Positions 22,061 through 38,523 of a stretch of DNA of 64,000 nt are shown in pieces. Within the stretch, counting starts at the first letter, position 1, and each line of letters starts with the position of its first letter. The DNA comes from Chloroflexia bacterium (GTDB taxonomy: Bacteria; Chloroflexota; Chloroflexia; Thermomicrobiales; CADCWN01): the NCBI GenBank assembly GCA_039810045.1, contig JBDHWF010000003.1:1834-65833 (forward strand), written 5' to 3'. A program made the translations under genes and the position numbers. Below the pieces are notes generated by a model. That model saw nothing but the letters and a program-made list of their open reading frames with translations, ran no database searches and was not told the origin of the DNA.

Positions 22061-24349
22061 CTATGGTATCGGTGGTTCAATCGGTGGGATTGCATTGAAG
22101 TCGCTATAAGTACTCTCCATATAATGCCCCACGCTGAACATTCGCTGCCGCCGCACCAGATTATCATCGACCCCGATCCAGAACGTCATCCGGCTGCCAC
22201 TTGGCACATCAAGGAAACTAACCACCCAACACGGCGTACCAGCAATCGTTTCGCGCCCCAATAACGTCACTTCATTGGAGATACTGGCATTATCGAAGAT
22301 CGGCCAGCGATAGCCCGCAGGTTCCGGCCACACACTTTGCACCCAATTCCCACCCGCTGGGCGATCATACCGCTGCTTCCCGACCACGATTGTTTCGCTA
22401 CCAGCCTCTGAGCGCAGGTGCATGCGGTTTGGCGCGACCCACTGGTAATCCGTCGTAATGGGCGCACCGCTACCAGTGATCGTCTGATGTTCGCGCAAAC
22501 CAGTGAGTTGATTCATCGCCAGATCTGATTGTGCCAGTAACGAACGCGCACCACCCGTTGGAAGATCCAGGTTAAACACCGCGCGGTCAGTTCCTCCACC
22601 ACGCGGTGTAACCAACGCTTCGAGTTGCCAATGCCCCGGTTTACCAAGTTCCCCCAACCCCGTATAGCGACCATCCCGCGCTACCAATGGCACCTCTTGC
22701 GGAACCGCCCCATTTGTAGCGGTGAGCCGCAACGTCACAGCAGCATCAGTGAGGCTACCCCCAGCAGAATCTTGCAACGTCACATTCAGCACGGCTGGGC
22801 CAGTGGTCGTTGGTCCAATTGTCAGCGTTACCAGGGTTGGCCCCGCGTTCATTGCCAGCGTCACACTATCAGCAATAGTGGTGTTGGCAGGCGCACTGGC
22901 TGGCGCATCAGCGCTGACGACAGTACGAGCGGGTGGTAATGCCGTCAACAAGCCAACGACCAGCAATACCACCATCCCTATCGTCATTTCACCCCAGAGG
23001 GTCTGCCATAAACGCTGTATTGTCTGCGCCGTCGGCGCATTCGTCTCCCGCACTAGTCGTGGCAGAATCCAGAAGCGATTCATTGCGGCGAACCCCAGCA
23101 ACGGCACCAGGAGGAGGAGTTTCACCAGCAGCGTTCCACCATAGAGGCTTTGCCCCAACGCCAGTGGGCCATCAACGTGGACCCAGGTTTGGTAAAAGCC
23201 AGTCACGATAAGCAGTTGAATGGCAACAAGGGCCAGCGCCGAAAAACGCAAAATGATCCGCAGCAGCGTCTTGAACTGTGCTGTCACTGGTAATGCCCGA
23301 ATCATCCGCGGCAGAACCAGGGCGAGTATCAGCACCCCACCAAGCCAAGCTGACGAGGCCACAAGATGAACCCAATCGACCAGAATTGACAGCAGGATTG
23401 GGTCGGTCGTGGCCGCATGGCCGCTGATACTCGTTACGAGGGCATAGGCCAACCCCGCGATCAATAGCAATAACCAGGCGCGCTGCCCGCTGAGTGAGGC
23501 AATCGGCTCCTCGTCGGCAGCGCGTAGCTCCAACTCAGCACTGAGAATGGGCAAGGTCAGGGCTGGCGCAATCAGAAGGGCTAATCGACTCAGCCAGAGC
23601 GTGCCAAAGCGCCCGGTCAAGGCCCCAAGCAGATTCCCTGGCTGGAGAAACTCGCTGCCACCACCAAAGGCGCTGGCATAGGCGGCACTGATCAACAGGC
23701 AGAGCTGACCAAGGACAACAAGGCCAAATGCCAGCCAGATCCAGCGCACAATCGTTGGTTCAAAAAGGGTGAGGAAGTCATCATAACGCGACCGCTGCCG
23801 CGCTGGCGTGAACAGCAGCAGGCTGAGCCGGAAGGCCAGCGGCCCCAGCCAGAGACTCAGCCCCAGGAGAATTAATCCCCGGGCCAGCGCCTGGAGTAGC
23901 AGGGGTGGGGTCAAACCCGTTGGTTCAGTTTCGGCTGTGCCTAAGAGCAAATCTGCCGGAGCTACCCCCACCCCAAACCGAAACTCTCCAGTGACTGGAT
24001 GGGTATCTGCTGATACCAGCGCATAACGCACGGTATAGACTCCAGTTGAGAGTTCAGGCAGAGAAACCGCCACCGAGAGCGGATCATTGGGGGCAGCGTG
24101 GGCATCGCGCCGATCCACGCGCCGCCCGCCAGTGTCAGTTACGGCGATCTTATCGGCGCGAACCTCCACCCGCTCATTAAATGTCAGGCGCACCTCGCCA
24201 ACCGTTGCCGCCACCACAGTACCAGCCGCAGGTTGGGTCCGTTGCAAAAAGGCGTGGGCAGAAACAAGCGTTGGTGTCAACAGCACACCAGCGGCAAGCA
24301 CCAGGCCAAGCAGAAACCCCAGCACCCACTGTAAATGCCGAATATTCAA
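22061..24349 (-). CDS. CopC-CopD fusion copper transport/resistance protein with extra C-terminal extracytoplasmic domains (YcnJ-like)
   Basis: After a signal peptide comes 'HAFLQRTQPAAG...YALVSADTHPVTGEF' (CopC), then about 8 TM helices (CopD). A beta-rich 'GRYTGLGELGKPGHWQLEALV' module (YtkA/FixH-like) follows, plus about 170 further residues. Confidence 0.75.
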   Translation of the reverse strand: MNIRHLQWVLGFLLGLVLAAGVLLTPTLVSAHAFLQRTQPAAGTVVAATVGEVRLTFNERVEVRADKIAVTDTGGRRVDRRDAHAAPNDPLSVAVSLPELSTGVYTVRYALVSADTHPVTGEFRFGVGVAPADLLLGTAETEPTGLTPPLLLQALARGLILLGLSLWLGPLAFRLSLLLFTPARQRSRYDDFLTLFEPTIVRWIWLAFGLVVLGQLCLLISAAYASAFGGGSEFLQPGNLLGALTGRFGTLWLSRLALLIAPALTLPILSAELELRAADEEPIASLSGQRAWLLLLIAGLAYALVTSISGHAATTDPILLSILVDWVHLVASSAWLGGVLILALVLPRMIRALPVTAQFKTLLRIILRFSALALVAIQLLIVTGFYQTWVHVDGPLALGQSLYGGTLLVKLLLLVPLLGFAAMNRFWILPRLVRETNAPTAQTIQRLWQTLWGEMTIGMVVLLVVGLLTALPPARTVVSADAPASAPANTTIADSVTLAMNAGPTLVTLTIGPTTTGPAVLNVTLQDSAGGSLTDAAVTLRLTATNGAVPQEVPLVARDGRYTGLGELGKPGHWQLEALVTPRGGGTDRAVFNLDLPTGGARSLLAQSDLAMNQLTGLREHQTITGSGAPITTDYQWVAPNRMHLRSEAGSETIVVGKQRYDRPAGGNWVQSVWPEPAGYRWPIFDNASISNEVTLLGRETIAGTPCWVVSFLDVPSGSRMTFWIGVDDNLVRRQRMFSVGHYMESTYSDFNAIPPIEPPIP

Positions 24350-24506
24350 CCAGCCTCCAACCTCTGTAACCCCACATCATCAACGCACTTGCTGAAGTGT
24401 ACTGTGGTCAGGATAAGCCCACAATGGACACGTATGCTGCCAATCGTGGCGTGGCACGCTCCTGATAGTTGCCCTACCAGCCGCTAACCACTATCATTGC
24501 TCTCTT

Positions 24507-25019
24507 ATGACGACACGAACAACCGCGAATGCACAAGCAAAGAACACCATCCACTCGTCAGAGAATGGGGATCGCGTCATTACGACCAATCGTCAGGCGC
24601 GGTTTGAGTATACGATCCTGGAATCAATGGAAGCAGGGATCGCGCTGACTGGTACCGAGATTAAATCGGTGCGTGGTGGTCACGCCAATATCCGCGATAG
24701 TTATGCGCGCATCGAAGCTGGAGAACTCTGGCTGATCAATATGCACATTGCACCCTACGATCAGGCCGGTAGCTACTATCAACACGACCCGATTCGCCCC
24801 AGGAAACTGTTGGTACACCGCCGCGAAATCGCCCGCCTCAAAGCGGAACTCGGGCAAAAGGGACTGACCTTAGTCCCCCTGCGCCTCTATCTCAAACGTG
24901 GCCGTGCAAAAGTAGAAATTGGGCTGGCACGCGGGAAGAAGCTCTATGATAAGCGCGATGCGCTGGCCGAGCGTGACGCCAAACGTGATATTGAGCGCAG
25001 CCTCCGCAATCGCGAGTAG
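24507..25019 (+). CDS. smpB: SsrA-binding protein
   Basis: 'NRQARFEYTILESMEAGIALTGTEIKSVR' and 'LVPLRLYLKRGRAKVEIGLARGKK' are present. The gene lies directly upstream of the tmRNA gene. Confidence 0.93.
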   Translation: MTTRTTANAQAKNTIHSSENGDRVITTNRQARFEYTILESMEAGIALTGTEIKSVRGGHANIRDSYARIEAGELWLINMHIAPYDQAGSYYQHDPIRPRKLLVHRREIARLKAELGQKGLTLVPLRLYLKRGRAKVEIGLARGKKLYDKRDALAERDAKRDIERSLRNRE

Positions 25020-25030
25020 AACATTGGTGC

Positions 25031-25059
25031 TTGCAGTGACCGCAGAGATCATCTATCAT
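25031..25059 (+). promoter_or_regulatory. Candidate sigma-70 promoter for ssrA
   Basis: TTGCAG (25031-36), a 17-nt spacer, and TATCAT (25054-59), lying 22 nt before the mature tmRNA 5' end. A small leader hairpin ggtgac-ctc-gtcacc lies between them. Confidence 0.4.
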
Positions 25060-25081
25060 TAAGCGGTGACCTCGTCACCCT

Positions 25082-25431
25082 GGGGATGTCTGGTTTCGAC
25101 AGGGACGTAGGCGAGGGAATTGCAGGCCGAGGCGCCCGGGTTCCTCGTAAAAACGGGCAATGCCATAACTGGCAACACCGAATACGCTCTGGCTGCCTAG
25201 GTAGCCACGTCCGCGCAGTCCCCACCCCAACGGGATTGTAGTCGGGCGTCACAAAGTTGGGGTGCTGCATTGCCGACTGCGGGCTGAGCAATGCCTAAGA
25301 CCAGCCCACTAGCGCACTAGAGAGGCTGTCGAGAGTCGCTCGGTGAGCAAAAACTAAAATCTCGACTATGTCTGTAGGATATTCCCCGTTGAACTTTCTG
25401 GACGGGGGTTCGACTCCCCCCATCTCCACCA
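25082..25431 (+). ncRNA. ssrA: tmRNA (transfer-messenger RNA)
   Basis: The 5' GGGGAUG pairs with the 3' CAUCUCC, including the G3:U wobble, followed by A-CCA. The T-arm is GGGGGUUCGACUCCCCC. The internal tag ORF ends ...AAC ACC GAA UAC GCU CUG GCU GCC UAG (..NTEYALAA*, 25162/25171-25200); the resume codon is uncertain (GCC or GGC). Confidence 0.95.
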
Positions 25432-25456
25432 AGCAGCGACCCCAACCAGTATTGTG

Positions 25457-25493
25457 AGCAAAGCTGAAGGTAGCACCTGCCTTCAGCTTTGCT
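25457..25493 (+). terminator. Terminator-like hairpin after ssrA
   Basis: A perfect 14-bp stem (agcaaagctgaagg / ccttcagctttgct) with a 9-nt loop. Confidence 0.5.
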
Positions 25494-26014
25494 GATCGCT
25501 TGCCTGACCGCCGCCACTTTGCACTCTCCCCAGATAGTTTTGCAAAGAAAACGTCTCCTATTCTAGCCAAGAAACACCAAAAGTACTACAGACAATAGTC
25601 TTAATAATGGATACGATTGTCTAGAATGATCACGCCCTTTTGTATGACGCCCCTGGGTAACTAGAGGGGTACAGGGGTCGGCCCAAAGGTATTCAATATC
25701 TCGGCACAACCTGCTCAGCACTTCTGCATTGCGATTGCCTACCTCTGCTTGTTCCGTGAGAATTGTGCGCCGTAGCATGACACGGAACGCCGCTGCATCA
25801 ACTGATGCAGAACAGGAATATTCGCCTTGTCGATCACATCGCAGATCGACAAGAAAGGAGGGGGGAGCAGATAGATTCGATAGTCCTGAACCGAAATAGG
25901 AGTTTTGGGTCTTTGCATCATGGTCTGACGCCTTGTACAGTTCCTAGTAGGGTTAGCACAAAGCTGTGCATGAGTGACCAGCATCATGGTCGATCACAGA
26001 AGAAGGAGTATGCA

Positions 26015-26215
26015 ATGAACCTGACTGCGATTGAGATTGTTGTTCGGCGTATTTTCAGCGATGCTGAGTTCCGCGCACGAGCGCTGGCAAATCCAACAAC
26101 GGCGCTTGCTGAATATCAGCTTGCTGCTGCTGAACAGCAAGCATTGACGAAGCTGTGCCTACGCATGGCTGATGGGCAGAACGCGGTTGTCCCGAACTTT
26201 TACTGGTGGCTCTAG
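26015..26215 (+). CDS. 66-aa putative RiPP/pheromone precursor peptide (ComX-like: helical leader plus C-terminal ...NFYWWL)
   Basis: A strong SD, AAGGAG at 26003-26008, lies 6 nt before ATG 26015. The sequence is MNLTAIEIVVRRIFSDAEFRARALANPTTALAEYQLAAAEQQALTKLCLRMADGQNAVVPNFYWWL. The N-terminal 50 aa resemble helical leader peptides (DxxFRxxxxxxPxxALxEY). It lies immediately upstream of a prenyl-synthetase-fold gene. Confidence 0.6.
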   Translation: MNLTAIEIVVRRIFSDAEFRARALANPTTALAEYQLAAAEQQALTKLCLRMADGQNAVVPNFYWWL

Positions 26216-26290
26216 GTCGGGCGCGATCAACAGATACGGCGTGTAGCTACCTAGCAGGAAGCACCAGCGAACCTTGAGGAGTTAGGCGGC

Positions 26291-27190
26291 GTGCCCGATA
26301 CAGAACGGTTCGCTATTGTCAGGCAGCTACTCGAAGAGGCAGTGGAGCGCACGCCGCTCCCCGCCTCTTCTCAGCCGTTTCTCCGTATTCCCCTACAGCA
26401 GCCAGGAAAACTTCTCGGCGGTGCAGAACAACCACTTTGGCCAGCCACCGTCTTGGCCGTTTGTGCCGCAAGTGGTGCCGATCAGCGGCTCGGCAGTAAA
26501 GTTGCGGCGGCAGTCGAACTCTTTATGGCCAGTCTCGATATTCTCGATGAGCTTGAAGATGGTGATCGGTCACCGCTTGCGGAAACAGTTGGCCCCGCAC
26601 GTGCCCTCAATATTTCCACGATGCTTCTCTTTCTGGCCCAAAGCTTGCTTCAGAGTTTACACGAAGATGGTTTACCAGCAGAACGAGTTCTACAACTGAC
26701 CAAAACGCTTACTACGTTTGGCATCGAAGCAACTGTTGGACAAGATCGCGATTTACAAAGTGCCAATGCCGAAGCTCTTTCGTATGACGAAGCCCTGACG
26801 ATTGCCCAGATGAAAGCGGGCGCATTAGTCGCGTGTGCTTGTACGATCAGTGCCCTGCTTGCCACCGATGACCCATATCTGCTCAAACTCTATGGTGACT
26901 GGGGCAGACATTACGGCACCGCCGCGCAACTGGCGAATGATTTACATGACGCAACAAATGCCAACAAGAGTGATCTGGCCCAACAAAAAGGAACACTGCC
27001 ACTCCTCTACGAGCGCACGACGAATGACGGGGCTGTATCCCCGCCCGCCGTAGCAACAAGTGGCGCACTTCATTTTACCTGGGTAGTGCTAGAAATGGAA
27101 CGGCAACAGTGTGCCGAGCTTGCGACCATGCTGACAGCACACGGACAGGCGGCAAGGCATTTACAAACCTTACCTGGGGCAGTTGAGTGA
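26291..27190 (+). CDS. Polyprenyl-synthetase-fold protein with degenerate Asp-rich motifs (ComQ-like putative peptide prenyltransferase)
   Basis: 299 aa; GTG start with GAGGAG 9 nt upstream. The family landmarks 'GQDRDL', 'KAGAL' and 'KSDLAQQKGTLPLL' are present. However, the first Asp-rich motif is 'LDILDELEDGD' and the second is 'AQLANDLHD' (NDxxD) instead of DDxxD. Confidence 0.65.
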   Translation: MPDTERFAIVRQLLEEAVERTPLPASSQPFLRIPLQQPGKLLGGAEQPLWPATVLAVCAASGADQRLGSKVAAAVELFMASLDILDELEDGDRSPLAETVGPARALNISTMLLFLAQSLLQSLHEDGLPAERVLQLTKTLTTFGIEATVGQDRDLQSANAEALSYDEALTIAQMKAGALVACACTISALLATDDPYLLKLYGDWGRHYGTAAQLANDLHDATNANKSDLAQQKGTLPLLYERTTNDGAVSPPAVATSGALHFTWVVLEMERQQCAELATMLTAHGQAARHLQTLPGAVE

Positions 27191-30100
27191 TCACGACGAG
27201 CCAACCACCTCATCGATCAACACTCCACCCCGCCAGACCATTTCGGCTGGCATTATTCATCCTGATCCCAATCTTCATTGCCTGTCTCATTGTTGCCCAG
27301 CATGATGCAAAGCGTGCGCCTACTCTGGGGATAACGGTCACGCAAACCGAGCTAGGTGGCCCCTGGCTCGTCAGTAACGTGTCCTTTGGGAGCAGAGCCA
27401 ACTATCTGGGCATTGAGCCTGGGAATCAGATAGTACGCATTGACGGTAATGCGGTACAACGGGATCAGGCACCAGATCCTGTACTGATTCAGCAAGCGAC
27501 CCAACTGGTTATTACGAATGCCGATGGTTCAAAAACACGCACCTTCGATCTGGCTGGATTACAGTCAGGACCATTGAATCTAACCCCCTATCTGGTGATG
27601 AGCACCATCTTCTTCACTGTGGGGTTTATTACGCTATTGTTTGGTCAAGGGGCAGCACCGCGTGCGCTAGCCCTCCTCACCATGAGTGGGGCACTTGAAG
27701 CAGTCGCCATCCCCCTGAGCTTACGGGCAACAAACTGGGCGATTATTGCGAATGGGGTCTGTGTTCCCATCTTTATTGGTAGCTTCGCCTATCTCTTTCT
27801 TGTATTCCCGCGTCGCCGTCTGTTGCACGTCGGAAAGAAGCGCTTTCCACCAGAGTTAATCCTGCTGCCGATCATTCCCACCTTCATTACATATATGTTC
27901 TCTATCGCGACAAGTCATGCCGCAGTTATTATGGTTGGCCGAGTACTGGGCTACCCCTACTTCCTCGCTTGCTTTATCGGGGGGATTCTGGCCCTGATCC
28001 TCAGTTGGCGACAAGCACGCCCAGGGCGTGAAAAGACCCAACTCCGTACAGTAACGCTGGCAAGTATCGCCGCAATCACGCCATTTCTCTTGATCAACTT
28101 CTTCCCTCAGATCACCTTTGGCAATACCTTCCTCTCCGCCGACTACACGATCTTGCCTATGGCCTTAATTCCCCTCGCGTTCGGCTACGCCATCTTGCGT
28201 TATCAACTGATGAATATGCACCTCTATCTGCGGCGTGGGGTTGGCTATTCGATTCTTGGGGTTGGCATTACGGGAGTCTACACCTTAGGGCTGGCGATTG
28301 CCTCCATTACTATTCGTAACCAAACGGCCAGTAGTTTGCTCATCACGGCAATCATGATGACTATCGTCGTGCTGCTCGGCGACCATCTCCGTACAAAAAT
28401 CCAACACCATGTTGATCATCTCTTTGACCGTAAGGGGTATGACTATCGCCGCCAATTACTTGAGTTTAGTCAGCAGATGAATACGATCCTTGATCCTGAT
28501 GAACTTGCCGAATCAACCGTTGGCCTGATCGAACAGACCATGAGTTCATACTATGTGCGGCTGTATATCTACGACCGCGCAACCAGCACCTTCCACCTTT
28601 GGGCGCATGCAGGGACGCCCGTACCAAGCACCGAGCAAACACTGCCCCCTGAACACCCCACCAGTATGAAGATGCGCAACGCTGGCTGGGAAATTGTGCA
28701 ACATCTGGAAGTACAAGCTGATCAAGATGTTCTACTTGTACCACTGACCAATAAAGGCCAACCAGTCGCTATGCTTGTCCTGGGCGCAAAGCGATCAGAA
28801 CTGCCATATTCAAGCGAAGACCTTGTCTTGCTCAGTACTGTCGCCAGCCAACTGGCGATCTCGACGGAAAACGCCCAACTGTATGGGCGAATGCGCGATC
28901 TCTACCTCTCTGGGATTCGCACACTCGCAGCAACGGTTGATGCCAAAGATTCCTATACCCACGGTCATTCCGAGCGGGTCGCGGGGTATGCCCGCGCCCT
29001 GGCGATCGCGCTGAATTTGCCACAAATCGAAGTCGAAACCATTGAATTAGCGGGGTTATTGCACGATATTGGCAAAATTGGTATTCCTGATGCGGTACTC
29101 CAAAAACCTGGAAAGCTCGCCCCAGATGAACGGGCATTGATCGAACAGCACACCGAAATTGGGGCCCGGATCCTCGCTGATAATCCTGCGCTCCAGGCCC
29201 TTGTTCCGCTTGTACGGCATCATCACGAACGCTGGGACGGCAAAGGATATCCTGATCAGCTTCGTGGTGAAGCGATTCCCCTGGGGGCAGCAATTATCTG
29301 CGTGGCCGACACATTCGACACAATGACGACCAACCGCCCATATCGTCAGGCACCAGGATATGAACAAGCCTACCTGGAAATCCTGCGCCAGCGTGGGCAG
29401 CAATTTTCTCCTCGGGTGGTCGAGGCATTTATTCGGGTCGACTTTTCTCAGGGCAACTGCTCGACAGCAAACCAAAAAACCACTGCGCTACAGTCGCGGA
29501 TGGCCCTGGCGGAACAAGCTACTGCTACCAACAACCGCGCAATGCGCATTGTCTATCAAATTGCCCAACTGCTGAGTACCGCCAAAGAGTTAGATGTGTT
29601 CTTACAACGGGTGATCGAACTCTTACAAAATGAACTTGCGACCAATACTGTTGACTTCTTCATTATCGATGAAGAAACACAAACGCTCTACAATCGCCCC
29701 AGTACGCAAAGTAGCTTAGGCCAAATACAGCTTCCACTCGGCCAAGGTCTGGTAGGCTGGGTTGCTCAGCACCAGACGGCTGTCTGTATTGATGATATTC
29801 GCACTGATGATCGCGCAGTGATTGCGAACGGTTGGGATGGCCGAGCAGAACTCGCTGTGCCTCTGATTAGCAGTGGGAAGACGATTGGCGTACTGAATGT
29901 TGAGAGTACGCGCGTGGCCGCATTCACCGATGAGGACACCAAACTCCTGACCATCATTGCGGGACAACTGGCCCAGGTTATTGAAGTGACACAATTACAT
30001 CTGGACGCCCGTAAGGCCGCAGGCCTCGATAGCCTCACCAAGATTGCCAATCATCGGCAATTTTACAACCGTCTGGAAATGGCAATCGCGGCAACCCAAC

Positions 30101-30564
30101 AGCACCACAGTGCCCTGGCCCTCGCCATTATCGATGTTGATAACCTGAAATATATCAACGATACCTTTGGTCATTTAGCAGGTGATTCTGTTCTCTATAC
30201 GCTGGCTCAACACCTTGAAGCCCACGCCCAGGCTGAGGAATTTGTCGCGCGCTACGGTGGTGATGAGTTTGCAATCATCTTCCCCAACACCACTGATACC
30301 CAAGCAAAAGCACGAATCGAGGCACTCAGGGTCTACCTGCAAGAAGCGGCAACGCTCACAATCGACAATCAACAATTACCCCTCCCCGAACTCTCGGTAG
30401 GCGTTGCTGCTTTTGATCCAGAAACGATGACCCTGAGTGCGCTGATCAACGCTGCCGACAAAAAGATGTATGAACAGAAACGCGCCCACCGCAAGCACCG
30501 ACAACGCCCAACTCCGCCAGCAAGCCCCTTGGCAATTACTACGCCAATCGCCTATGATCGATAA
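27187..30564 (+). CDS. Polytopic membrane receptor: TM, PDZ-like loop, multi-TM, GAF, HD-GYP, GAF, GGDEF (c-di-GMP turnover)
   Basis: 1125 aa with a GTGA overlap with the upstream gene. aa 20-40 form a TM helix. aa ~60-125 'GIEPGNQIVRIDGNAV' are PDZ-like. aa ~130-400 carry about 9 TM helices ending in 'AILRYQLMNMHLYLRR'. The HD-GYP domain has 'HGHSERV', 'LLHDIGK' and 'HHERWDGKGYP' (aa ~575-750). The GGDEF domain has 'RYGGDEFAIIF' (aa ~945-1100). GAF-like modules flank the HD-GYP domain. Confidence 0.85.
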   Translation: MITTSQPPHRSTLHPARPFRLALFILIPIFIACLIVAQHDAKRAPTLGITVTQTELGGPWLVSNVSFGSRANYLGIEPGNQIVRIDGNAVQRDQAPDPVLIQQATQLVITNADGSKTRTFDLAGLQSGPLNLTPYLVMSTIFFTVGFITLLFGQGAAPRALALLTMSGALEAVAIPLSLRATNWAIIANGVCVPIFIGSFAYLFLVFPRRRLLHVGKKRFPPELILLPIIPTFITYMFSIATSHAAVIMVGRVLGYPYFLACFIGGILALILSWRQARPGREKTQLRTVTLASIAAITPFLLINFFPQITFGNTFLSADYTILPMALIPLAFGYAILRYQLMNMHLYLRRGVGYSILGVGITGVYTLGLAIASITIRNQTASSLLITAIMMTIVVLLGDHLRTKIQHHVDHLFDRKGYDYRRQLLEFSQQMNTILDPDELAESTVGLIEQTMSSYYVRLYIYDRATSTFHLWAHAGTPVPSTEQTLPPEHPTSMKMRNAGWEIVQHLEVQADQDVLLVPLTNKGQPVAMLVLGAKRSELPYSSEDLVLLSTVASQLAISTENAQLYGRMRDLYLSGIRTLAATVDAKDSYTHGHSERVAGYARALAIALNLPQIEVETIELAGLLHDIGKIGIPDAVLQKPGKLAPDERALIEQHTEIGARILADNPALQALVPLVRHHHERWDGKGYPDQLRGEAIPLGAAIICVADTFDTMTTNRPYRQAPGYEQAYLEILRQRGQQFSPRVVEAFIRVDFSQGNCSTANQKTTALQSRMALAEQATATNNRAMRIVYQIAQLLSTAKELDVFLQRVIELLQNELATNTVDFFIIDEETQTLYNRPSTQSSLGQIQLPLGQGLVGWVAQHQTAVCIDDIRTDDRAVIANGWDGRAELAVPLISSGKTIGVLNVESTRVAAFTDEDTKLLTIIAGQLAQVIEVTQLHLDARKAAGLDSLTKIANHRQFYNRLEMAIAATQQHHSALALAIIDVDNLKYINDTFGHLAGDSVLYTLAQHLEAHAQAEEFVARYGGDEFAIIFPNTTDTQAKARIEALRVYLQEAATLTIDNQQLPLPELSVGVAAFDPETMTLSALINAADKKMYEQKRAHRKHRQRPTPPASPLAITTPIAYDR

Positions 30565-30629
30565 GTGCGCGGTGGGGTCTACCCAGCGTTCATTCGATCG
30601 GATCAGCACACTGTATTGAGGAGTGAAGC

Positions 30630-31220
30630 GTGCCCCGTAAACCCAAAGCAGCCCAACCAGCCCAGGCCGCCCCACTGGCCGAACCGATCGTCGCCGAGCC
30701 AGCCCCAGAGCGCGGGATGTCGCACATTGACGAAACATTGGTCAACATGGTTGCAGCGCAAGCATCGGCAAGCGCCATGCAAGCCACTACCGAAGATACG
30801 ACTGAAGAACCGCTCGATCCGTTTGCCACATTTTGGACCGAGCTTGATCTCCACTGTCGCGACTGCCAGATTATTCACTATGTACCAATCTGCCTCTTTC
30901 TCAATGCTGAAGAATCGCCCGCCCTGGTACAGCGGATTATTTCTGGTCATTTCAACAACAAACGCTGCCCAGTCTGCCACAAAATCGAGTTTGTCGAACA
31001 CCCCTATAGCTTCTACGATCCCGCCCGAAAGCTCATCGTGCAAGTACGCCCAGAATGGGAATGGCACGCAGGCGGCGGGGACGAATGGTATGCCGCCCGC
31101 CTCGAAGATCTTTTCGATAAGTGGGCTGAATACGATGTCCAGATTGAAGTGGTCTTTGGTCAGCAACAACTGATTGATCGCTTCCTCCAGGCAGTCTCAC
31201 CACCACCTGCTCGTCGCTGA
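30630..31220 (+). CDS. CpXC-domain protein (uncharacterised zinc-ribbon-like)
   Basis: GTG start with GAGGAG 6 nt upstream. It has an acidic/Ala-rich N-terminus, then 'CRDCQ...' and 'CPVCH' Cys pairs about 50 aa apart, as in CpXC proteins. The nearly co-extensive antisense ORF 30603..31169 has no motifs. Confidence 0.55.
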   Translation: MPRKPKAAQPAQAAPLAEPIVAEPAPERGMSHIDETLVNMVAAQASASAMQATTEDTTEEPLDPFATFWTELDLHCRDCQIIHYVPICLFLNAEESPALVQRIISGHFNNKRCPVCHKIEFVEHPYSFYDPARKLIVQVRPEWEWHAGGGDEWYAARLEDLFDKWAEYDVQIEVVFGQQQLIDRFLQAVSPPPARR

Positions 31221-31248
31221 GATCAATGCACATTCCTGCAAATACCAG

Positions 31249-31280
31249 CAGGCCACCAACGTAGCGCGGTTGGTGGCCTG
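31249..31280 (+). terminator. Terminator-like hairpin after the CpXC gene
   Basis: A perfect 12-bp stem (caggccaccaac / gttggtggcctg) with an 8-nt loop, followed by cttag. Confidence 0.5.
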
Positions 31281-31569
31281 CTTAGACGCGGTCAGGCAAT
31301 TGGTATGGAGCTATCGTCAGGTCCCTTTGCAGAATGAATACACTTGCGCCAGCAAGATCGCCTCAGTACACTTGCGCCATCACGATACACCCCTTGGCAT
31401 ATATGCTGCAGCAGATCGCAAGGCCAGAGATTCCTGGCCTCCGAAACACTGAACCTGGCAATGACGTTTGATACTATGACTGTGTAGTGGCATCGTTCAA
31501 CGATCTGGACGTTCGACCAGGCGGCACTCATTCTCTATTAGGGGTAGTACATAGGGGATAACAAGCACT

Positions 31570-33318
31570 ATGAGTGTCCCATTTCGCCTTCGCGTCAGTA
31601 GCGGACCAAATGCCGGAGAGAGCTTCATCCTCACCGACAATGGGGCAACCATTGGGCGGCAAGATGGCAACACTATCGTTCTCGACGATAGTCGCTTATC
31701 GCGCCAACACGCCCGCATTGATCTCGGCCCTGGTGGGCTCACTTTAACCGATCTTGGCTCCGCTAATGGTACCCTGGTCAATGGGCAGCGAGTCAGTGGC
31801 ACCCGAATCTTGCAACGCGGCGACCAGATTCAGCTTGGGGAGACGACGCTGATCCTTGAAGGAGGGGCACCGGCGAACAATCGTCTCGCCACGGTGGTAC
31901 CAAAGCCCGAAAATATCGTTACCACCCCTATCTCGGCGAATGCTGCTCGCTTAGTACAGCAAGTGGGTGGGCAAATCTACCCATTGAACCAGCCCGAAAT
32001 CGTTATTGGGCGTGAGGTAGGCGCGGAAATCGCCCTTGATGATTCCCAGATATCGCGTCGCCACGCCCGCCTGACGATAACGGGGAATACCGTCACCATC
32101 GCTGATCTTGGCTCAGCAAACGGTACGTTCGTCAACGGCAGGAAGATCGCTGGCCCAACTTCATTACAAGAAGGCGATCGGATCCGTATTGGTACCCACG
32201 ATTTTCGGATCGAGGGTCTGGCGCCCCCTGCCACGGCACCGCAACTAGCAGATGCGAACGATGCCACAGTCGCAGGGATCGCGCCTTTCCCTGCCGCTAC
32301 ACCGCTCAGGCCACTCCCGCCAGCAGGCACTGCCCCCTTACCGCCGCTAGGCAACGCGCCGGGGCCACCAGCCTTTGGGGCTAACCAACCGTCATTAGCG
32401 CCTGGACAGCCCTGGAATCCTCCAGCATCGCCATACGGCTCGGTGGGGATGCCCCCACCATCACCCGCAAAACGCCGTTCAACCTCACCGATCCTGATCG
32501 GCGGTTGTGTAGTTCTCTTCCTGTTACTCTGTATCGGCGGCGGCATTGGCGGGGCAGTCGTCATCCGTAACCGTAACAACGACGCCACCCCAACCGTGGT
32601 GACGAATAGCACTGCTGTCCCAGGCGGCGGTGGCAGTAACCCCGCCCCATCACCACCAACCCCTGGCGGTGCGCTACCGCCCACCACTCAGCCAACGGCG
32701 ACGCTAGTTGCCCTCTTGCCGCCAACCACGCCCACAGCACCGGCAACGGCAACGTCAGCGCCGCTTCCCACATTGGCGGCACCGCCACCAACAACTGCGC
32801 CAACTCGCCGCCCGACCAATCAGGTCGCGCCAACGGTGGCGGCTACCCGTCCACCAGCGAACGGCAACACCACGATTACAGTTGATGCAGTGGGGTTGAC
32901 GTTCATCTTACCTACTGGTTGGACCCAGGAACGGGATGAGGCGGGCCAGGCCACCTTTCTGGCCCCAGACCAACGCGCGCAAATTACCGTACGGTGGAGC
33001 CAACAGGCCCCTGCGGGGCTGACCGCCCAACGGTTGATTCAGGATGAATTACAGCGAACTGCTAATGAAGATAGTAGCTTCGTCCCCAGCAACACCCAAA
33101 TCGGCGCGCTCACCTTTGGCGGGCACCCCGGCTATGGTTCGGAACCATATACCTACAATCTGCAAAGCGGTACGCGCCTGACTGAAGCTGACCGTGCTGT
33201 CGTACTCAGCGGGCGCGCCCAATACTTCTTTGGATTTACTGCCATTGCCACAGATTTTGATCGTTATCGATCGATCTTCGATAGTATCATCAATACTGTC
33301 GTCATTACTGGCCCTTAA
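31570..33318 (+). CDS. Double-FHA-domain membrane protein with extracytoplasmic C-terminal domain
   Basis: It has two FHA modules ('IGRQDGNTIVLDDSRLSRQHARI...GSANGTLVNG' and 'IGREVGAEIALDDSQISRRHARL...GSANGTFVNG'). A Pro-rich linker, the TM 'ILIGGCVVLFLLLCIGGGIGGAVVI', a PT-rich spacer and a ~150-aa globular C-terminus follow. Confidence 0.85.
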   Translation: MSVPFRLRVSSGPNAGESFILTDNGATIGRQDGNTIVLDDSRLSRQHARIDLGPGGLTLTDLGSANGTLVNGQRVSGTRILQRGDQIQLGETTLILEGGAPANNRLATVVPKPENIVTTPISANAARLVQQVGGQIYPLNQPEIVIGREVGAEIALDDSQISRRHARLTITGNTVTIADLGSANGTFVNGRKIAGPTSLQEGDRIRIGTHDFRIEGLAPPATAPQLADANDATVAGIAPFPAATPLRPLPPAGTAPLPPLGNAPGPPAFGANQPSLAPGQPWNPPASPYGSVGMPPPSPAKRRSTSPILIGGCVVLFLLLCIGGGIGGAVVIRNRNNDATPTVVTNSTAVPGGGGSNPAPSPPTPGGALPPTTQPTATLVALLPPTTPTAPATATSAPLPTLAAPPPTTAPTRRPTNQVAPTVAATRPPANGNTTITVDAVGLTFILPTGWTQERDEAGQATFLAPDQRAQITVRWSQQAPAGLTAQRLIQDELQRTANEDSSFVPSNTQIGALTFGGHPGYGSEPYTYNLQSGTRLTEADRAVVLSGRAQYFFGFTAIATDFDRYRSIFDSIINTVVITGP

Positions 33319-33335
33319 TAGATCAGGATTATTTT

Positions 33336-35255
33336 ATGAGTGATAGTACTACCACAGCAGATTCATTTGATAATCGTAACCAGATTGGCGCAGGGCAGGA
33401 AGAAACTGCGCACGCCCGCGGCGGCCTCACGGCAACAGCCTTTGGGCTCAGTGATATTGGCTGCCAGCGCTCGGTCAATCAGGATACCCTCGGTAATCGG
33501 CTCAGTCAGTTTCCCACCCAACTCCATGATCGGGGATTACTCTATGCCATTGCTGATGGAATGGGCGGCCATGCCCACGGCGAGATCGCCAGTGCCCTCG
33601 CGATCGACGAACTGTTCACCCGCTTCTATCAGATCGATCCCAGTCTCCCGCCACAAACAGCCCTGACCCAGGTGATGCAAGAACTGAATGCTGCGGTGCA
33701 TCAGGCGGGGCGGGATGCGGGCGGCGGATCGATGGGTACCACGCTGACGATAGTGCTCTTACGCGATAACATCCTCTATGTTGGCAACATTGGCGACAGT
33801 CGCACCTATCTAATTCGGGGCGGGAAGATCAAGCAACTGAGCCAGGATCATTCGCTGATCGGTGAGCAAATACGCAGCGGTACCCTGACCGAAGCCGACG
33901 CCCGTACCAGTGCAATTCGTAATGTGATTACCCGGGCGGTTGGCTATCGAGAAACTGTCGAACCAGAAACGTTTGCGTTTACCGTCCACCCCGGCGACAT
34001 CCTCTTACTCTGCTCGGATGGCTTGCATGGCCTGGTCGAAAATGAGGAACTGGCGCAAATCCTGAGTACACAAACGCTATCAGACGCCACAACCAACTTG
34101 ATCGCCCTGGCGCGTGAGCGTGGCGGGCCAGATAATATTACCGCACTCGTAGTGCGTGTCGATCAGCTTGGTGCAGCAGGCACGGCCAACGCCACACAGC
34201 AGATTACTGCCAGTGATAGTGACGCTGCTGATGACGCCACCAAGCCAATGCCAATGATCGCGCCAGATCGTACCGAAGAGATCCTCCTCCCAGCAACCGA
34301 AAATGAAGAGCAAGCAGCAACAACACTCCCAATGATCACCACACCAAAAGCTGCCCCCAATGCTCCAAGGCCAACAGTAGCCCCAGCGTCAATGCCCGCA
34401 CCAGCCCCAACCGTCGCCGATCTCGCCCGTCCAGCAGCCCGCCCGCCGCTCTGGCTGTTTATCGTGATCCCATTACTGTTAATCGGGCTGATTGCGGCGG
34501 GAGTGTTGCTCTTTACGCGAAACCTAAACACGACACCAACGCCTCCAGCAGTTGTTACGGTAGTGGCTACAGCAACGGTAGCACCAGCACCCTCGGCCAC
34601 GGCTGCTGTCGCCACTGCACCAGTTGTCGCTGCTGGCAGTATTGCGCCGACCGCACAACCAACTGCCACCTTACCCCCCAAAACACCACCAGCCAGCGCC
34701 CCAGCACAATCTAGCGGCGGCAGTAACCCCGCCGCCCCGATAGTACCGCGTCCCAATACTCCCTCAGCGATAGCAGCCGGGAATAGTGGGGCAACGCAAC
34801 GGATCAAGGTAAGCGGCACCGTGCGCTTTGCCGAAACACTAGCGATTCCCGCAGGATTCCCAAATGATTGGGCAGTATTGCTCTATGCACAACGTGACTT
34901 TCAGCAGCAACAGCAGGCGGCCCCAATCAAAGCACAATCCGCACTAACAGTCCTCCCCTTTCGCGAAGAGTACGGGTTTGTCCTTGATCTTGAGCTTGCC
35001 ACTGGGAATCAACAAGGAGAGCTATTCACCATTCAGCTACAGGATCTGGAAAATGACCAAATCGCCGTACTTGATCCCGGTGAGATTCGCATCGATCGCA
35101 CTGGTCGCCCAATTACTGTGCGCGTAACCAGTATTACTGAGCAACCAGAACCTCGGCCATCAGGCAACGTATCGCCGCGCACGCCAGCGATCTTCCTCAC
35201 AGACGACAAGATTCAGCGCGCTGTAGCAGTATTCCTACAGCAAGTCAGGCGCTAA
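33336..35255 (+). CDS. PP2C-family Ser/Thr phosphatase, membrane anchored
   Basis: 'YAIADGMGGHAHGEIAS', 'LLLCSDGLHG' and 'GGPDNITALVV' are present. The TM 'LWLFIVIPLLLIGLIAAGVLLF' and an extracytoplasmic A/P/T-rich region plus domain follow. Confidence 0.88.
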   Translation: MSDSTTTADSFDNRNQIGAGQEETAHARGGLTATAFGLSDIGCQRSVNQDTLGNRLSQFPTQLHDRGLLYAIADGMGGHAHGEIASALAIDELFTRFYQIDPSLPPQTALTQVMQELNAAVHQAGRDAGGGSMGTTLTIVLLRDNILYVGNIGDSRTYLIRGGKIKQLSQDHSLIGEQIRSGTLTEADARTSAIRNVITRAVGYRETVEPETFAFTVHPGDILLLCSDGLHGLVENEELAQILSTQTLSDATTNLIALARERGGPDNITALVVRVDQLGAAGTANATQQITASDSDAADDATKPMPMIAPDRTEEILLPATENEEQAATTLPMITTPKAAPNAPRPTVAPASMPAPAPTVADLARPAARPPLWLFIVIPLLLIGLIAAGVLLFTRNLNTTPTPPAVVTVVATATVAPAPSATAAVATAPVVAAGSIAPTAQPTATLPPKTPPASAPAQSSGGSNPAAPIVPRPNTPSAIAAGNSGATQRIKVSGTVRFAETLAIPAGFPNDWAVLLYAQRDFQQQQQAAPIKAQSALTVLPFREEYGFVLDLELATGNQQGELFTIQLQDLENDQIAVLDPGEIRIDRTGRPITVRVTSITEQPEPRPSGNVSPRTPAIFLTDDKIQRAVAVFLQQVRR

Positions 35256-35284
35256 ACGACAGCAACATTCTGCATATTGAGGTC

Positions 35285-37564: not shown

Positions 37565-37698
37565 TATTCCAATTGCCAGAAGATCAGTATACTGAGAAAC
37601 TGATGCTACGCTTTAGACGTTCAGGTAGGCAGAAGTAGACACGGCGCATATCGCAGACAGCTTTGGAATAGCGAACGAAGGAAGGGGAGCGACAGACG

Positions 37699-38508
37699 AT
37701 GGATGCATTCTTGATTGTGCAGCGTGGCGAGGACATTGGACGAAGGTTTGATCTCGACAACAATCAACTTACTATTGGTCGGGGATCAGATAACGATCTC
37801 GTCTTAAATGATCCAATGGTTTCGCGTTATCATGCCGTCCTCAAACAACAGGGGAATCGTTACTCGCTGATCGACCTTGGTAGCTCCAACCCTGTGGTCA
37901 TCAATGATCAGCCACTGGAGCCAGGGACACCCCAACAACTGACGCACCGGGATGTGGTCTTCATTGGCAAAACGGTCTTCTCATTCCAAAATCGTGCCGC
38001 TGGCATCAGCCACGCCGCATCCGCGCAGCCAGAGAAACACGAAGCAACCCAGGTTATCAGCAATCGCGATCATGACCCGTCGACACCACTGCCAGCGTCG
38101 CGCAGCAGTGCAACGTCCAGCAACACCCCTGCTGCCAGTAGGGCTACGGCACCAATGGGCCAACAGGAGGCCGGAAGCACGAAGCCCGCCGTAGTATCAC
38201 CACCAGAACGCCCAGCCCAGGAAGCAGCAACGCAGATTATTGAACCTGCCGACAAAGGGGCGAAGGAGGAGGATAACGACAAGACACTGATTGGGAGCGG
38301 GGCAACGTCCGCCCCACCGCCGCCAGTCTTCGCCCCGCCTCCACCACCAACGGCAGTGAAGTTCGACGACGAAGAAACGAATGCCTCGATCAAGATGCCG
38401 CCACCGCCACCATTCGGCACACCATCTACCCTCGGGGATAAGCAACCGAATACCGCCGACAATGATGAGGATGGCGACCTGCCAACCCAGATCATTCCCC
38501 GCCGCTAA
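37699..38508 (+). CDS. FHA-domain protein with Pro-rich disordered tail
   Basis: 'IGRGSDNDLVLNDPMVSRYHAVL...GSSNPVVIND' is an FHA domain. The C-terminal 170 aa are low-complexity (PPPP runs). Confidence 0.8.
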   Translation: MDAFLIVQRGEDIGRRFDLDNNQLTIGRGSDNDLVLNDPMVSRYHAVLKQQGNRYSLIDLGSSNPVVINDQPLEPGTPQQLTHRDVVFIGKTVFSFQNRAAGISHAASAQPEKHEATQVISNRDHDPSTPLPASRSSATSSNTPAASRATAPMGQQEAGSTKPAVVSPPERPAQEAATQIIEPADKGAKEEDNDKTLIGSGATSAPPPPVFAPPPPPTAVKFDDEETNASIKMPPPPPFGTPSTLGDKQPNTADNDEDGDLPTQIIPRR

Positions 38509-38523
38509 TCAGGGACTATTCCA

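What the first reader, a model, noticed from the sequence alone, without database searches (positions are those of the whole stretch)
26015..26215. Unannotatable-by-size 66-aa ORF looks like a RiPP precursor (helical leader plus Trp-Trp C-terminus)
The six-frame track shows only a 136-aa ORF (25805..26215). The AAGGAG at 26003-26008 points to ATG 26015 and a 66-aa product. Residues 1-50 (..RRIFSDAEFRARALANPTTALAEYQLAAAEQQALTKL) have the amphipathic 'DxxFRxxLxxxPxxALxEYxL' look of leader peptides and LigA-like helical hairpins. The last ~12 residues (QNAVVPNFYWWL) are hydrophobic and aromatic, with no charged residues. ComX pheromones are C-terminal 5-10-mers with the modified Trp at position -3 or -4.
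Basis: partly seen in the sequence, partly recalled or inferred. Interest (0 to 1): 0.7.

Follow-up and report, generated by a model that had tools for sequence, protein, structure and literature searches.

The report
Prenylated-peptide signal gene with c-di-GMP sensor
The 66-codon ORF is a real precursor gene for a ComX-like, tryptophan-lipidated peptide; it sits in a conserved three-gene unit with its prenyltransferase and a ComP-style membrane sensor that, unusually, carries c-di-GMP-making and c-di-GMP-breaking domains instead of a histidine kinase.

Summary
ATG 26015 with AAGGAG at 26003-26008 gives a 66-aa product. 23 syntenic homologues start at the same Met and are about 66 aa, and the upstream in-frame extension to 25805 is not conserved.

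The leader (residues 1-54) is conserved and belongs weakly to the NHLP clan. The core is variable. Trp at the second-to-last position is present in 23 of 23 syntenic loci.

The next gene (26291-27190) is a polyprenyl-synthase-fold enzyme. Its catalytic residues match, one for one, those of StheQ, the Sphaerobacter ComQ homologue shown in an August 2026 preprint to farnesylate the penultimate Trp of the 69-aa StheX.

The third gene (27187-30564) overlaps Q by 4 nt and follows Q wherever contigs continue. It encodes TM1, an extracytoplasmic PDZ domain, about nine further TM helices, then GAF, HD-GYP, GAF and GGDEF. The N-terminal half has the layout published for ComP.

In distant relatives the same sensor module carries a HisKA_3-type kinase, and in one locus a NarL-type regulator follows it.

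Best reading: a ComQXP-type peptide-signalling module whose output is rewired to c-di-GMP. The X/Q part is a new member of a known kind; the c-di-GMP output is a new variant. Prenylation, export and sensing are inferred, not shown.

The parts
26003..26008 (+). Shine-Dalgarno AAGGAG, 6 nt before the ATG of X
   Evidence: Read directly from the sequence. Homologues carry GGAGG/GGGGG-type sites at the same distance.
26015..26215 (+). X: 66-aa precursor peptide gene (stop codon included)
   Evidence: There are 23 syntenic homologues with the same start and length, and an exact 66-aa match in the NCBI-derived collection.
26015..26176 (+). Leader, residues 1-54 (NHLP-like helical region ending ...LTKLCLRMADG)
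   Evidence: Single-sequence hits are below the curated cut-offs: PF14407 E = 2.1e-6, NF038399 E = 5.8e-9, TIGR04509 E = 4.3e-5. The family profile hits nitrile hydratase alpha at 2.7e-4 and an NHLP leader structure, 8tb1, at 1.3e-3. Major-residue frequency is 0.71.
26177..26212 (+). Putative core, residues 55-66 (QNAVVPNFYWWL). W64 is at 26204-26206. W65, at 26207-26209, is the predicted prenylation site.
   Evidence: The core is variable (frequency 0.28), but Trp at position -2 is invariant in 23 of 23 syntenic loci. StheQ prenylates the equivalent W68 of the 69-aa StheX. The leader/core boundary is inferred, not shown.
26276..26281 (+). GAGGAG ribosome-binding site, 9 nt before the GTG start of Q
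   Evidence: Read from the sequence.
26291..27190 (+). Q: 299-aa ComQ/StheQ-type peptide Trp prenyltransferase (IPPS fold)
   Evidence: PF00348 E = 1.6e-15. About 66 close homologues (E <= 1e-42), mostly Thermomicrobiales/Chloroflexota; JGI names some of them ComQ. The indole prenyltransferase Ord1 (9v4g) is the second-best PDB hit.
26537..26566 (+). First Asp-rich motif of Q: D83, D86-E87-L-E89-D90-G-D92
   Evidence: D83, D86, E89, D90 and D92 are invariant and E87 is nearly invariant (at least 90%) in 24 homologues. The residues correspond to StheQ D82/D85/E86/D89/D91 at a constant +1 offset.
26927..26950 (+). Pseudo-second Asp-rich motif of Q: Q213-L-A-N216-D217-L-H-D220 (NDxxD instead of DDxxD)
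   Evidence: Q213, N216 and D217 are invariant and D220 is nearly invariant. They correspond to StheQ Q212/N215/D216/D219. In StheQ, N215D loses 98% of activity.
27187..30564 (+). S: 1125-aa membrane sensor. Its GTG start overlaps the Q stop codon by 4 nt.
   Evidence: S follows Q in every locus whose contig continues past Q.
27241..27297 (+). TM1 of S (residues 19-37), N-terminus inside
   Evidence: Hydropathy and the positive-inside rule.
27298..27576 (+). Extracytoplasmic PDZ domain of S (residues 38-130), with a conserved xLG(I/V/L) loop
   Evidence: The window copy gives sub-threshold hits to 5 PDZ models. PDZ_6 is above its cut-off in the orthologous position of L015, L016, L030 and L034. 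A profile of 11 orthologous loops hits only PDZ domains in the PDB, with DegP PDZ1 at 4e-10. AF2 pLDDT is 74-85 here, with a beta/alpha pattern.
27577..28386 (+). TM2-TM10 bundle of S (residues 131-400), including the conserved GYAILRYQLM motif
   Evidence: The topology has 10 TM helices with N-in and C-in, and K/R-rich loops inside.
28492..28872 (+). GAF domain 1 (residues 436-562)
   Evidence: PF13492, residues 436-562.
28927..29418 (+). HD-GYP domain (residues 581-744): LHDIGK ... HHERWDGKGYP intact
   Evidence: PF13487 E = 6.8e-38. Motifs checked.
29584..29985 (+). GAF domain 2 (residues 800-933)
   Evidence: PF13185.
30025..30495 (+). GGDEF domain (residues 947-1103): RYGGDEF intact, no RxxD I-site
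   Evidence: PF00990 E = 4.2e-40. The motif is present in every S homologue whose GGDEF region lies on the contig.

Best explanation
Window 26015-30564 is a three-gene operon, X-Q-S, that encodes a ComQXP-type peptide-signalling module with a second-messenger output.

Proposed mechanism:
1. X is translated as a 66-aa precursor with a helical NHLP-like leader and a short variable core ending in Trp-Trp-Leu.
2. Q is an all-alpha, IPPS-fold prenyltransferase with one Asp-rich motif and an NDxxD pseudo-motif. It binds X and transfers a prenyl group (probably farnesyl or geranyl) to C3 of the penultimate Trp (W65). This would give a pyrroloindoline lipopeptide, as shown for StheQ/StheX, ComQ/ComX and PalQ/PalX.
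3. The leader is removed and the lipopeptide is released by factors not encoded in the module.
4. S senses the peptide outside the cell. Its N-terminal half (TM1, PDZ in the first outside loop, nine more TM helices) has the layout modelled for the ComX receptor ComP. PDZ domains typically bind free C-termini, which is where X is conserved.
5. S has no kinase. It carries GAF, HD-GYP, GAF and GGDEF domains, so the signal would shift c-di-GMP turnover directly.

Shown here: the gene is real, the leader/core pattern holds, Q carries the StheQ catalytic residues, the X-Q-S linkage is conserved, the PDZ identity and topology hold, and the catalytic motifs are intact.

Inferred: prenylation at W65, the cleavage site, export, binding to S, and the direction of the c-di-GMP change.
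For: X is real and family-typical:
- same start, about 66 aa, leader 0.71 against core 0.28, Trp at -2 in 23 of 23 syntenic loci and in 35 of 54 unselected profile hits.
- The NHLP-type leader is supported.

Q is a StheQ-type enzyme:
- PF00348 hit.
- Invariant or nearly invariant (at least 90%) D83, D86, E87, E89, D90, D92, D154, K175, Q213, N216, D217 and D220 in 24 homologues. These match the StheQ residues D82/D85/E86/D89/D91/D153/K174/Q212/N215/D216/D219 at a constant +1 offset, and window A168 corresponds to StheQ A167.
- StheQ farnesylates W68 of the 69-aa StheX in vitro.
- Ord1 is the second-best PDB hit.

Operon structure:
- Q and S overlap by 4 nt.
- X-Q-S order holds in L001, L003, L004, L006-L013, L021, L022, L024 and L026-L029, at Q identity down to 39%.

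S as receptor:
- 10-TM topology with an outside PDZ. This is the same layout as the published ComP model: 10 TM, with the first extracellular loop (residues 27-111) folding as a PDZ (PMC9620489).
- In distant Q relatives (27-33% identity) the gene after Q has the same TM1-PDZ-multiTM module fused to a HisKA_3/NarX-class kinase (L016, L030/L031, L034). In L016 a REC+GerE regulator follows it. This is the comQXPA arrangement.
- The HD-GYP and GGDEF motifs are intact.

Precedent: PalP-PalX-PalQ links an NHLP-type precursor, a Q enzyme and a sensor kinase.
Against: - There is no expression, mass-spectrometry or binding data for this locus.
- No protease or exporter is conserved next to the module. 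Maturation and release are therefore assumed; the same gap exists for Bacillus ComX.
- The single-sequence hits of X to NHLP-clan models are below the curated cut-offs (28.3 against 48 bits; 35.9 against 40 bits).
- The window's own PDZ hits are sub-threshold. The AF2 model of the sensor half is poor (mean pLDDT 57.6), and the PDZ-only model failed (pLDDT 48).
The comparison rests on architecture taken from a modelling paper.
- The PDZ loop diverges fast even between loci with nearly identical cores (L006, L008, L009). Its variability is therefore not proof of peptide/receptor co-diversification.
- The preprint says stheX lies downstream of stheQ, whereas here X is upstream of Q.
Confidence: 0.68

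Rival explanations
1. X is prenylated by Q but is not a diffusible signal. The full-length or lightly trimmed lipidated X stays cell-associated. It would be a prenyl-anchored small protein that modulates S or Q from the membrane, analogous to CaaX lipid anchoring.
For: No protease or exporter is conserved in the module. StheQ forms a stable complex with full-length StheX, and residues 1-59 of StheX are predicted to be well ordered. The leader is strongly conserved, more than a disposable recognition tag might need to be.
Against: The sensor's peptide-binding-type domain (PDZ) is predicted to lie outside the membrane. The same sensor module sits on ComP-like kinases in relatives, and ComX and PalX are processed to short peptides. 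A variable core with a conserved leader is the classic RiPP pattern.
Confidence: 0.15
2. X/Q make an antimicrobial or surfactant-like lipopeptide (a bacteriocin-type RiPP). S is a neighbouring c-di-GMP enzyme that senses something else.
For: Many NHLP-led RiPPs are not signals. The core is hydrophobic and aromatic. The ligand of S is unknown.
Against: No immunity, transporter or further tailoring genes are conserved nearby. Q and S are translationally coupled. The Q-to-PDZ-sensor linkage survives down to 27% Q identity and across a change of output domain, which is hard to explain by chance synteny.
Confidence: 0.08
3. Q is an ordinary chain-elongating polyprenyl diphosphate synthase, and the small ORF is an unrelated or spurious call.
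For: The Pfam and NCBIfam hits are to polyprenyl synthases, and JGI names most homologues GGPP synthase.
Against: The second Asp-rich motif DDxxD is replaced by an invariant NDLHD, as in ComQ and StheQ. The scores lie far below every equivalog cut-off. True synthase relatives, such as the Blastococcus hopanoid-cluster enzyme P0078, score only 1e-8 and lack X and S. X is conserved at the protein level next to Q in 23 loci.
Confidence: 0.03
4. The ORF is the 3' part of the 136-aa reading frame that starts at 25805.
For: The frame is open from 25805.
Against: The upstream open stretch is 4-78 codons long in homologues and is not conserved. Every homologue has Met at the short start, with a ribosome-binding site. 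The Pfam hit covers only the last 66 residues.
Confidence: 0.02

Closest known systems
StheQ/StheX of Sphaerobacter thermophilus (Matsui et al., bioRxiv 10.64898/2026.08.29.745113, Aug 2026)
   Same: Same phylum-level lineage (Chloroflexota/Thermomicrobia relatives). The precursor is about 66-69 aa with WW at positions -3 and -2. The Q catalytic residues are identical at a constant +1 numbering offset. The Trp at -2 is the site StheQ farnesylates in vitro.
   Different: The preprint states that the biological role is unknown, and the sections read here name no receptor. Here a conserved third gene, the PDZ-10TM-GAF-HD-GYP-GAF-GGDEF sensor, is linked to X and Q. The preprint describes stheX as downstream of stheQ; here X is upstream.
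ComQXPA quorum sensing of Bacillus subtilis and relatives
   Same: Both have an IPPS-fold Trp prenyltransferase, a small precursor with Trp near the C-terminus, and a polytopic sensor with 10 TM helices and a PDZ in the first outside loop (ComP model, PMC9620489).
   Different: The gene order is X-Q-S rather than Q-X-P-A. Trp is at -2 rather than -3 or -4. The leader is NHLP-like. S has no HisKA or HATPase_c domain, and there is no ComA-type regulator; the output domains are HD-GYP and GGDEF. StheQ is only 19% identical to ComQ.
PalP-PalX-PalQ of Paenibacillus alvei (PMC10853753)
   Same: An NHLP-type precursor with a conserved C-terminal Trp, an isoprenoid-synthase-superfamily prenyltransferase, and an adjacent sensor gene. 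The leader enhances modification but is not strictly required.
   Different: PalX is modified on the very last residue with dimethylallyl. PalP is a histidine kinase. PalQ forms its own distant cluster. The lineage is Firmicutes.
Quorum-signal receptors that act directly on c-di-GMP (for example RpfR for BDSF, and dCache-GGDEF receptors for AI-2; cited from my own knowledge)
   Same: The concept is the same: an extracellular autoinducer is read by a protein that itself makes or breaks c-di-GMP, with no phosphorelay.
   Different: Those ligands are a fatty acid or a furanosyl compound, and the sensor domains are PAS or dCache. Here the presumed ligand is a prenylated ribosomal peptide and the sensor is a ComP-type PDZ/10-TM module.

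Membership tests
ComQ-family (StheQ-type) peptide Trp prenyltransferase | trans-IPPS (polyprenyl_synt) fold | tested here: met
   PF00348 E = 1.6e-15, above its cut-off. The PDB hits are IPPS enzymes and Ord1.
ComQ-family (StheQ-type) peptide Trp prenyltransferase | First Asp-rich motif retained; second motif replaced by the pseudo-SARM NDxxD | tested here: met
   D86-E87-x-E89-D90-x-D92 and Q213...N216-D217-x-x-D220. These residues are invariant or nearly invariant (at least 90%) in 24 homologues and match the StheQ residue list.
ComQ-family (StheQ-type) peptide Trp prenyltransferase | Catalyses C3 prenylation of a Trp in the adjacent peptide | not testable with these tools
   This needs an enzyme assay or MS. 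It is shown only for StheQ, ComQ and PalQ in the literature.
ComX/StheX-type precursor | Small ORF adjacent to Q with Trp within the last 2-4 residues; conserved N-terminal region and variable C-terminal core | tested here: met
   23 of 23 loci have Trp at -2; leader 0.71 against core 0.28.
NHLP-clan leader peptides (PF14407 / NF038399 / TIGR04509) | Score above the curated cut-off of a clan model | tested here: not met
   28.3 against 48 bits, 35.9 against 40 bits, and 23.5 against 34 bits. Homology is still likely: the family profile hits nitrile hydratase alpha at 2.7e-4 and the NHLP leader 8tb1 at 1.3e-3, and homologues carry a precomputed PF14407 hit.
ComQXPA quorum-sensing locus | ComP: polytopic sensor (8-10 TM, large first outside loop) next to Q and X | tested here: met
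   S has 10 predicted TM helices with a PDZ in loop 1. This matches the published ComP model. It is an architecture match only; sequence homology to ComP was not tested.
ComQXPA quorum-sensing locus | ComP histidine-kinase core (HisKA_3 + HATPase_c) | tested here: not met
   S has GAF, HD-GYP, GAF and GGDEF domains and no kinase domain. The kinase version exists in L016, L030 and L034.
ComQXPA quorum-sensing locus | ComA: adjacent NarL/FixJ-type response regulator | tested here: not met
   The gene after S is a CpXC protein, followed by FHA/PP2C genes. A REC+GerE regulator is present only in the L016 variant.
c-di-GMP turnover enzymes | Intact GGDEF and HD...HHExxDGxGYP motifs | tested here: met
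   RYGGDEF, LHDIGK and HHERWDGKGYP are present. Enzyme activity was not tested.

The most novel reading that the evidence does not exclude
This would be the first peptide-pheromone system in which a ribosomal, Trp-prenylated peptide is read by a ComP-type PDZ/10-TM receptor that itself synthesises and degrades c-di-GMP, with no phosphorelay and no transcription factor in the module. A whole Thermomicrobiales/Chloroflexia clade would have swapped the kinase output of an ancestral ComQXPA-like system for a second-messenger output. The PDZ domain would recognise the free (prenyl-Trp)-X-COOH end of the peptide.
Probability: 0.4. Interest if true: 0.8.

Novelty: new variant of a known kind. Interest (0 to 1): 0.62.

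Why it matters
The finding matters in three ways.

1. It confirms that ComX-like Trp-prenylated peptides occur outside the Firmicutes. I recovered 23 syntenic loci and 55 profile relatives.

2. It supplies the piece missing from the StheQ/StheX preprint, namely a candidate receptor and a biological read-out. The conserved X-Q-S unit predicts that a lipidated peptide directly controls c-di-GMP, and hence probably the switch between biofilm and motility, in poorly studied soil Chloroflexota.

3. The pairing of one sensor module with two outputs is a natural experiment on how signalling outputs are exchanged. The module carries a kinase plus NarL-type regulator in Nitrolancea-like loci and HD-GYP/GGDEF here. 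This makes the ComP PDZ-binds-ComX hypothesis testable in a second, simpler system whose enzymatic output can be measured directly.

Tried and rejected
- **Longer 136-aa ORF:** rejected, because the upstream extension is not conserved.
- **AF2 of S residues 1-440:** low confidence (57.6). The Foldseek hits against the PDB were generic GPCR-like helix bundles (TM-score 0.25-0.34) and are meaningless.
- **AF2 of the PDZ loop alone, without an alignment:** failed, with pLDDT 48. A profile-against-PDB sequence search replaced it.
- **StheQ structure or sequence in the PDB copy:** absent, so no direct identity to StheQ could be measured.
- **Rfam scan of 24000-31600:** found only the tmRNA.
- **Promoter and terminator scans:** no more sites than in shuffled sequence. 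The X-Q spacer fold is not unusual, z = -1.08.
- **Genomic island at the tmRNA gene:** no att-like repeat and only a marginal GC dip. The idea was dropped.
- **Conserved protease or exporter near the module:** none. The neighbours in the MFD clade (ATP-grasp, formyltransferase, epimerase, SAM synthetase) and in the window (CpXC, FHA, PP2C, S8, ABC) are lineage-specific.
- **More distant Q-like hits:** the cyanobacterial P0073 and the Blastococcus P0078 lack X and S and are outgroups.
- **Plasmid tblastn with Q:** no match.
- **Word-indexed search with the S sensor half:** only 5 hits.
- **Organism name:** could not be retrieved.
- **PDZ/core co-diversification:** the PDZ loop is the fastest-evolving part of S, but it also diverges where cores are nearly identical. 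This was not counted as evidence.

Full report
**Observation**

AAGGAG lies at 26003-26008 and ATG at 26015. The reading frame runs to TAG at 26213-26215 and encodes MNLTAIEIVVRRIFSDAEFRARALANPTTALAEYQLAAAEQQALTKLCLRMADGQNAVVPNFYWWL. The mechanical ORF list shows only the 136-aa frame from 25805.

This exact 66-aa protein is already in the NCBI-derived protein collection, on a 66,573-bp contig. It is small but not unannotatable.

**Is it a gene, and where does it start?**

A word-indexed search found three close relatives, 66, 66 and 51 aa long. I then scanned genome and metagenome collections with the neighbouring enzyme and ran tblastn. This gave 23 loci with a homologous small ORF immediately upstream of the enzyme gene.

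- All of these ORFs begin at the homologous M(N/E/D)L, and all are 65-71 aa long.
- The in-frame open stretch upstream varies from 4 to 78 codons. This removes the 136-aa reading.
- The major-residue frequency is 0.71 over residues 1-54 and 0.28 over the rest. Trp at the second-to-last position is the exception: it is present in 23 of 23 loci.
- A profile of four sequences, searched against 1.84 billion representative proteins, gave 55 hits with E <= 1e-3. Most are 60-80 aa long, and 35 of the 54 sequences retrieved carry Trp at -2.

**Leader type**

Single-sequence hits are to NHLP-clan models: PF14407 at 2.1e-6, NF038399 at 5.8e-9 and TIGR04509 at 4.3e-5. All are below the curated cut-offs. 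The LigA hit is weaker (E = 0.053).

A 35-sequence family profile has nitrile hydratase alpha subunits (2.7e-4) and a solved NHLP leader, 8tb1 (1.3e-3), as its top PDB hits. I regard the leader as NHLP-like, but formal membership at the gathering threshold is not met.

**The neighbour Q (26291-27190)**

Q is a polyprenyl_synt protein (PF00348, 1.6e-15). It scores far below every NCBIfam synthase equivalog cut-off. About 66 close homologues (E <= 1e-42) form a tight family, largely from Thermomicrobiales and Chloroflexota metagenome-assembled genomes. JGI labels a few of them ComQ. True synthases, such as the Blastococcus hopanoid-cluster enzyme, are remote and lack the small ORF.

In a 24-sequence alignment the invariant or nearly invariant (at least 90%) residues include D83, D86, E87, E89, D90, D92, D154, K175, Q213, N216, D217 and D220.

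A bioRxiv preprint of August 2026 (10.64898/2026.08.29.745113) describes StheQ and StheX from Sphaerobacter thermophilus:
- StheX is a 69-aa peptide with Trp at positions -3 and -2.
- W68, at position -2, is farnesylated in vitro.
- The functional residues listed are D82, D85, E86, D89, D91, D153, A167, K174, Q212, N215, D216 and D219.

Every one of these corresponds to the window protein at a constant +1 offset, including A168. I could not obtain the StheQ sequence, because it is not in the PDB copy. The correspondence is therefore by residue numbers and motifs, not by a measured identity. The indole prenyltransferase Ord1, which the preprint uses as its structural reference, is the second-best PDB hit of Q.

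**The third gene S (27187-30564)**

The GTG start of S overlaps the Q stop codon by 4 nt. Pfam finds GAF, HD-GYP (HD_5, 6.8e-38), GAF and GGDEF (4.2e-40). The motifs LHDIGK, HHERWDGKGYP and RYGGDEF are intact.

The first 400 residues have ten hydrophobic segments. The pattern of positively charged loops places the N-terminus and the C-terminal domains inside the cell, and the 92-residue loop between TM1 and TM2 outside.

That loop is a PDZ domain:
- It gives sub-threshold hits to five PDZ models in the window copy. PDZ_6 scores above its cut-off at the same position in homologues: 41.9, 34, 31.9 and 35.6 bits in L015, L016, L030 and L034.
- A profile of eleven orthologous loops hits only PDZ domains in the PDB: DegP PDZ1 at 4e-10, then RseP-type, DegQ, CtpA and DegS.
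- The loop begins with a conserved xLG(I/V/L) that resembles a carboxylate-binding loop. It also carries the classic A..AG(I/L).xGD.(I/V)..(I/V)(D/N)G stretch.

The sensor half of S therefore looks like the ComX receptor, while the output half is different.

**Linkage**

S follows Q in every locus where the contig continues: L001, L003, L004, L006-L013, L021, L022, L024 and L026-L029. This holds at Q identities down to 39%. No other neighbour is conserved across the clades.

In the most distant Q relatives (27-33% identity) the next gene again starts with TM1-PDZ-multiTM, but it ends in a NarX/UhpB/LiaS-class (HisKA_3) histidine kinase. These loci are L016/L033 (Nitrolancea-like), L030/L031 and L034. 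In L016 a REC+GerE response regulator follows the kinase. L031 also has a candidate precursor ending ...PLAWV.

So the wider family has the comQXPA logic, and the window's clade has replaced the kinase and regulator with HD-GYP/GGDEF. PalP-PalX-PalQ of Paenibacillus is a further precedent for the combination of an NHLP precursor, a Q enzyme and a sensor kinase.

**Mechanism proposed**

Steps 1-3 rest on homology to experimentally studied systems. Steps 4 and 5 are inference from architecture and conserved linkage.

1. X is made.
2. Q binds it through the leader and the C-terminal region.
3. Q prenylates W65.
4. Unlinked factors trim and release the peptide.
5. The lipopeptide's free (prenyl-Trp)-X-COOH end engages the outside PDZ/TM module of S. 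This changes the balance of c-di-GMP synthesis (GGDEF) and hydrolysis (HD-GYP) through the GAF linkers.

**Caveats**

- There are no expression or chemical data for this locus.
- No processing or export genes are linked, as is also true for comQX.
- The structure models were poor.
- Homology of S to ComP at the sequence level is untested.
- The PDZ loop is the fastest-evolving part of S: 24% identity against 54-77% for the other domains between the window and L003, and 62% against 92-97% between L006 and L008. It also diverges where the cores are almost identical, so I do not count this as co-diversification.
- In the MFD clade the HD-GYP motif reads HHEW(Y/F)NGxGYP.
- The preprint describes stheX as downstream of stheQ, the opposite order to the one seen here.

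**Comparison and novelty**

The X/Q pair is a new member of the StheQ/StheX kind, which is itself a branch of the ComQ/ComX and PalQ/PalX kind. The conserved c-di-GMP sensor is not mentioned in the sections of the preprint that I read. It also did not appear in the literature I could search.

Direct coupling of an autoinducer to c-di-GMP enzymes is known for non-peptide signals (from my own knowledge: RpfR with BDSF, and dCache-GGDEF receptors with AI-2). I found no such case for a ribosomal peptide. Hence my rating of 'new variant of a known kind'.

**Verdict**

My confidence by claim:

| Claim | Confidence |
|---|---|
| X is a genuine Q-modified precursor | about 0.85-0.9 |
| S is its receptor | about 0.5 |
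| The whole best explanation | 0.68 |

Noticed in passing
window 24507-25019 (+) and 25082-25431 (+): smpB (PF01668, 1.5e-60) is followed directly by a full-length tmRNA gene (RF00023, 174 bits). About 580 bp with no recognisable gene lie between the tmRNA end and X. I found no att-like repeat of the tmRNA 3' end up to position 32000.
   Followed up: partly
window 30630-31220 (+): A CpXC-domain protein (PF14353, 1e-10) lies just downstream of S. It is conserved at this position only in the closest relatives (L003, L021, L024) and not in the MFD clade. Its role, if any, in the module is unknown.
   Followed up: partly
window 31570-41128 (+): A run of signalling genes: a double-FHA membrane protein, a PP2C phosphatase, an S8 subtilase (35285-37564), an FHA protein, and an ABC-2 transporter with two N-terminal FHA domains. 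The subtilase and the transporter are conceivable processing and export factors for X, but they are not conserved next to the module elsewhere.
   Followed up: partly
L016 574-3553, L015 906-4359, L033: Nitrolancea-type variant: Q, then a PDZ-TM-GAF-HisKA_3-class kinase (781 aa), then a REC+GerE regulator. This is a full comQXPA-like layout in Chloroflexota. The candidate X (L015 906-1139, 77 aa) has an internal ...AEWWVPPPQEPAS rather than Trp at -2, and it overlaps the called Q start. L016 is labelled as a Pseudomonadota MAG although it closely resembles the Nitrolancea locus.
   Followed up: partly
L031 3368-3646 and L030/L031 Q + 810-aa kinase; L034 2424-4820: Very distant Q relatives (27-30% identity) still sit next to a TM1-PDZ-multiTM histidine kinase. 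L031 has a helical small ORF ending ...PLAWV (Trp at -2) about 400 nt upstream of Q, and its leader is not NHLP-like.
   Followed up: partly
L006-L013, downstream of S (e.g. L006 12408-15039): In the 'MFD' Chloroflexia clade an ATP-grasp ligase (ATP-grasp_4 + LAL_C2), a small ORF with no family hit, and a formyltransferase-domain protein follow S. This may be lineage synteny or extra tailoring. The HD-GYP motif in this clade has Asn in place of the Asp of HHExxDGxGYP.
   Followed up: no
window 31339-31386: Two 20-nt direct repeats (TACACTTGCGCCAGCAAGAT and TACACTTGCGCCATCACGAT), 28 nt apart start to start, lie in the gap upstream of the FHA gene at 31570. They may form an operator-like site.
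   Followed up: no
window 22061-24349 (-): A 762-aa CopC-CopD fusion protein (copper resistance domains). It is conserved upstream of the module in L003.
   Followed up: no
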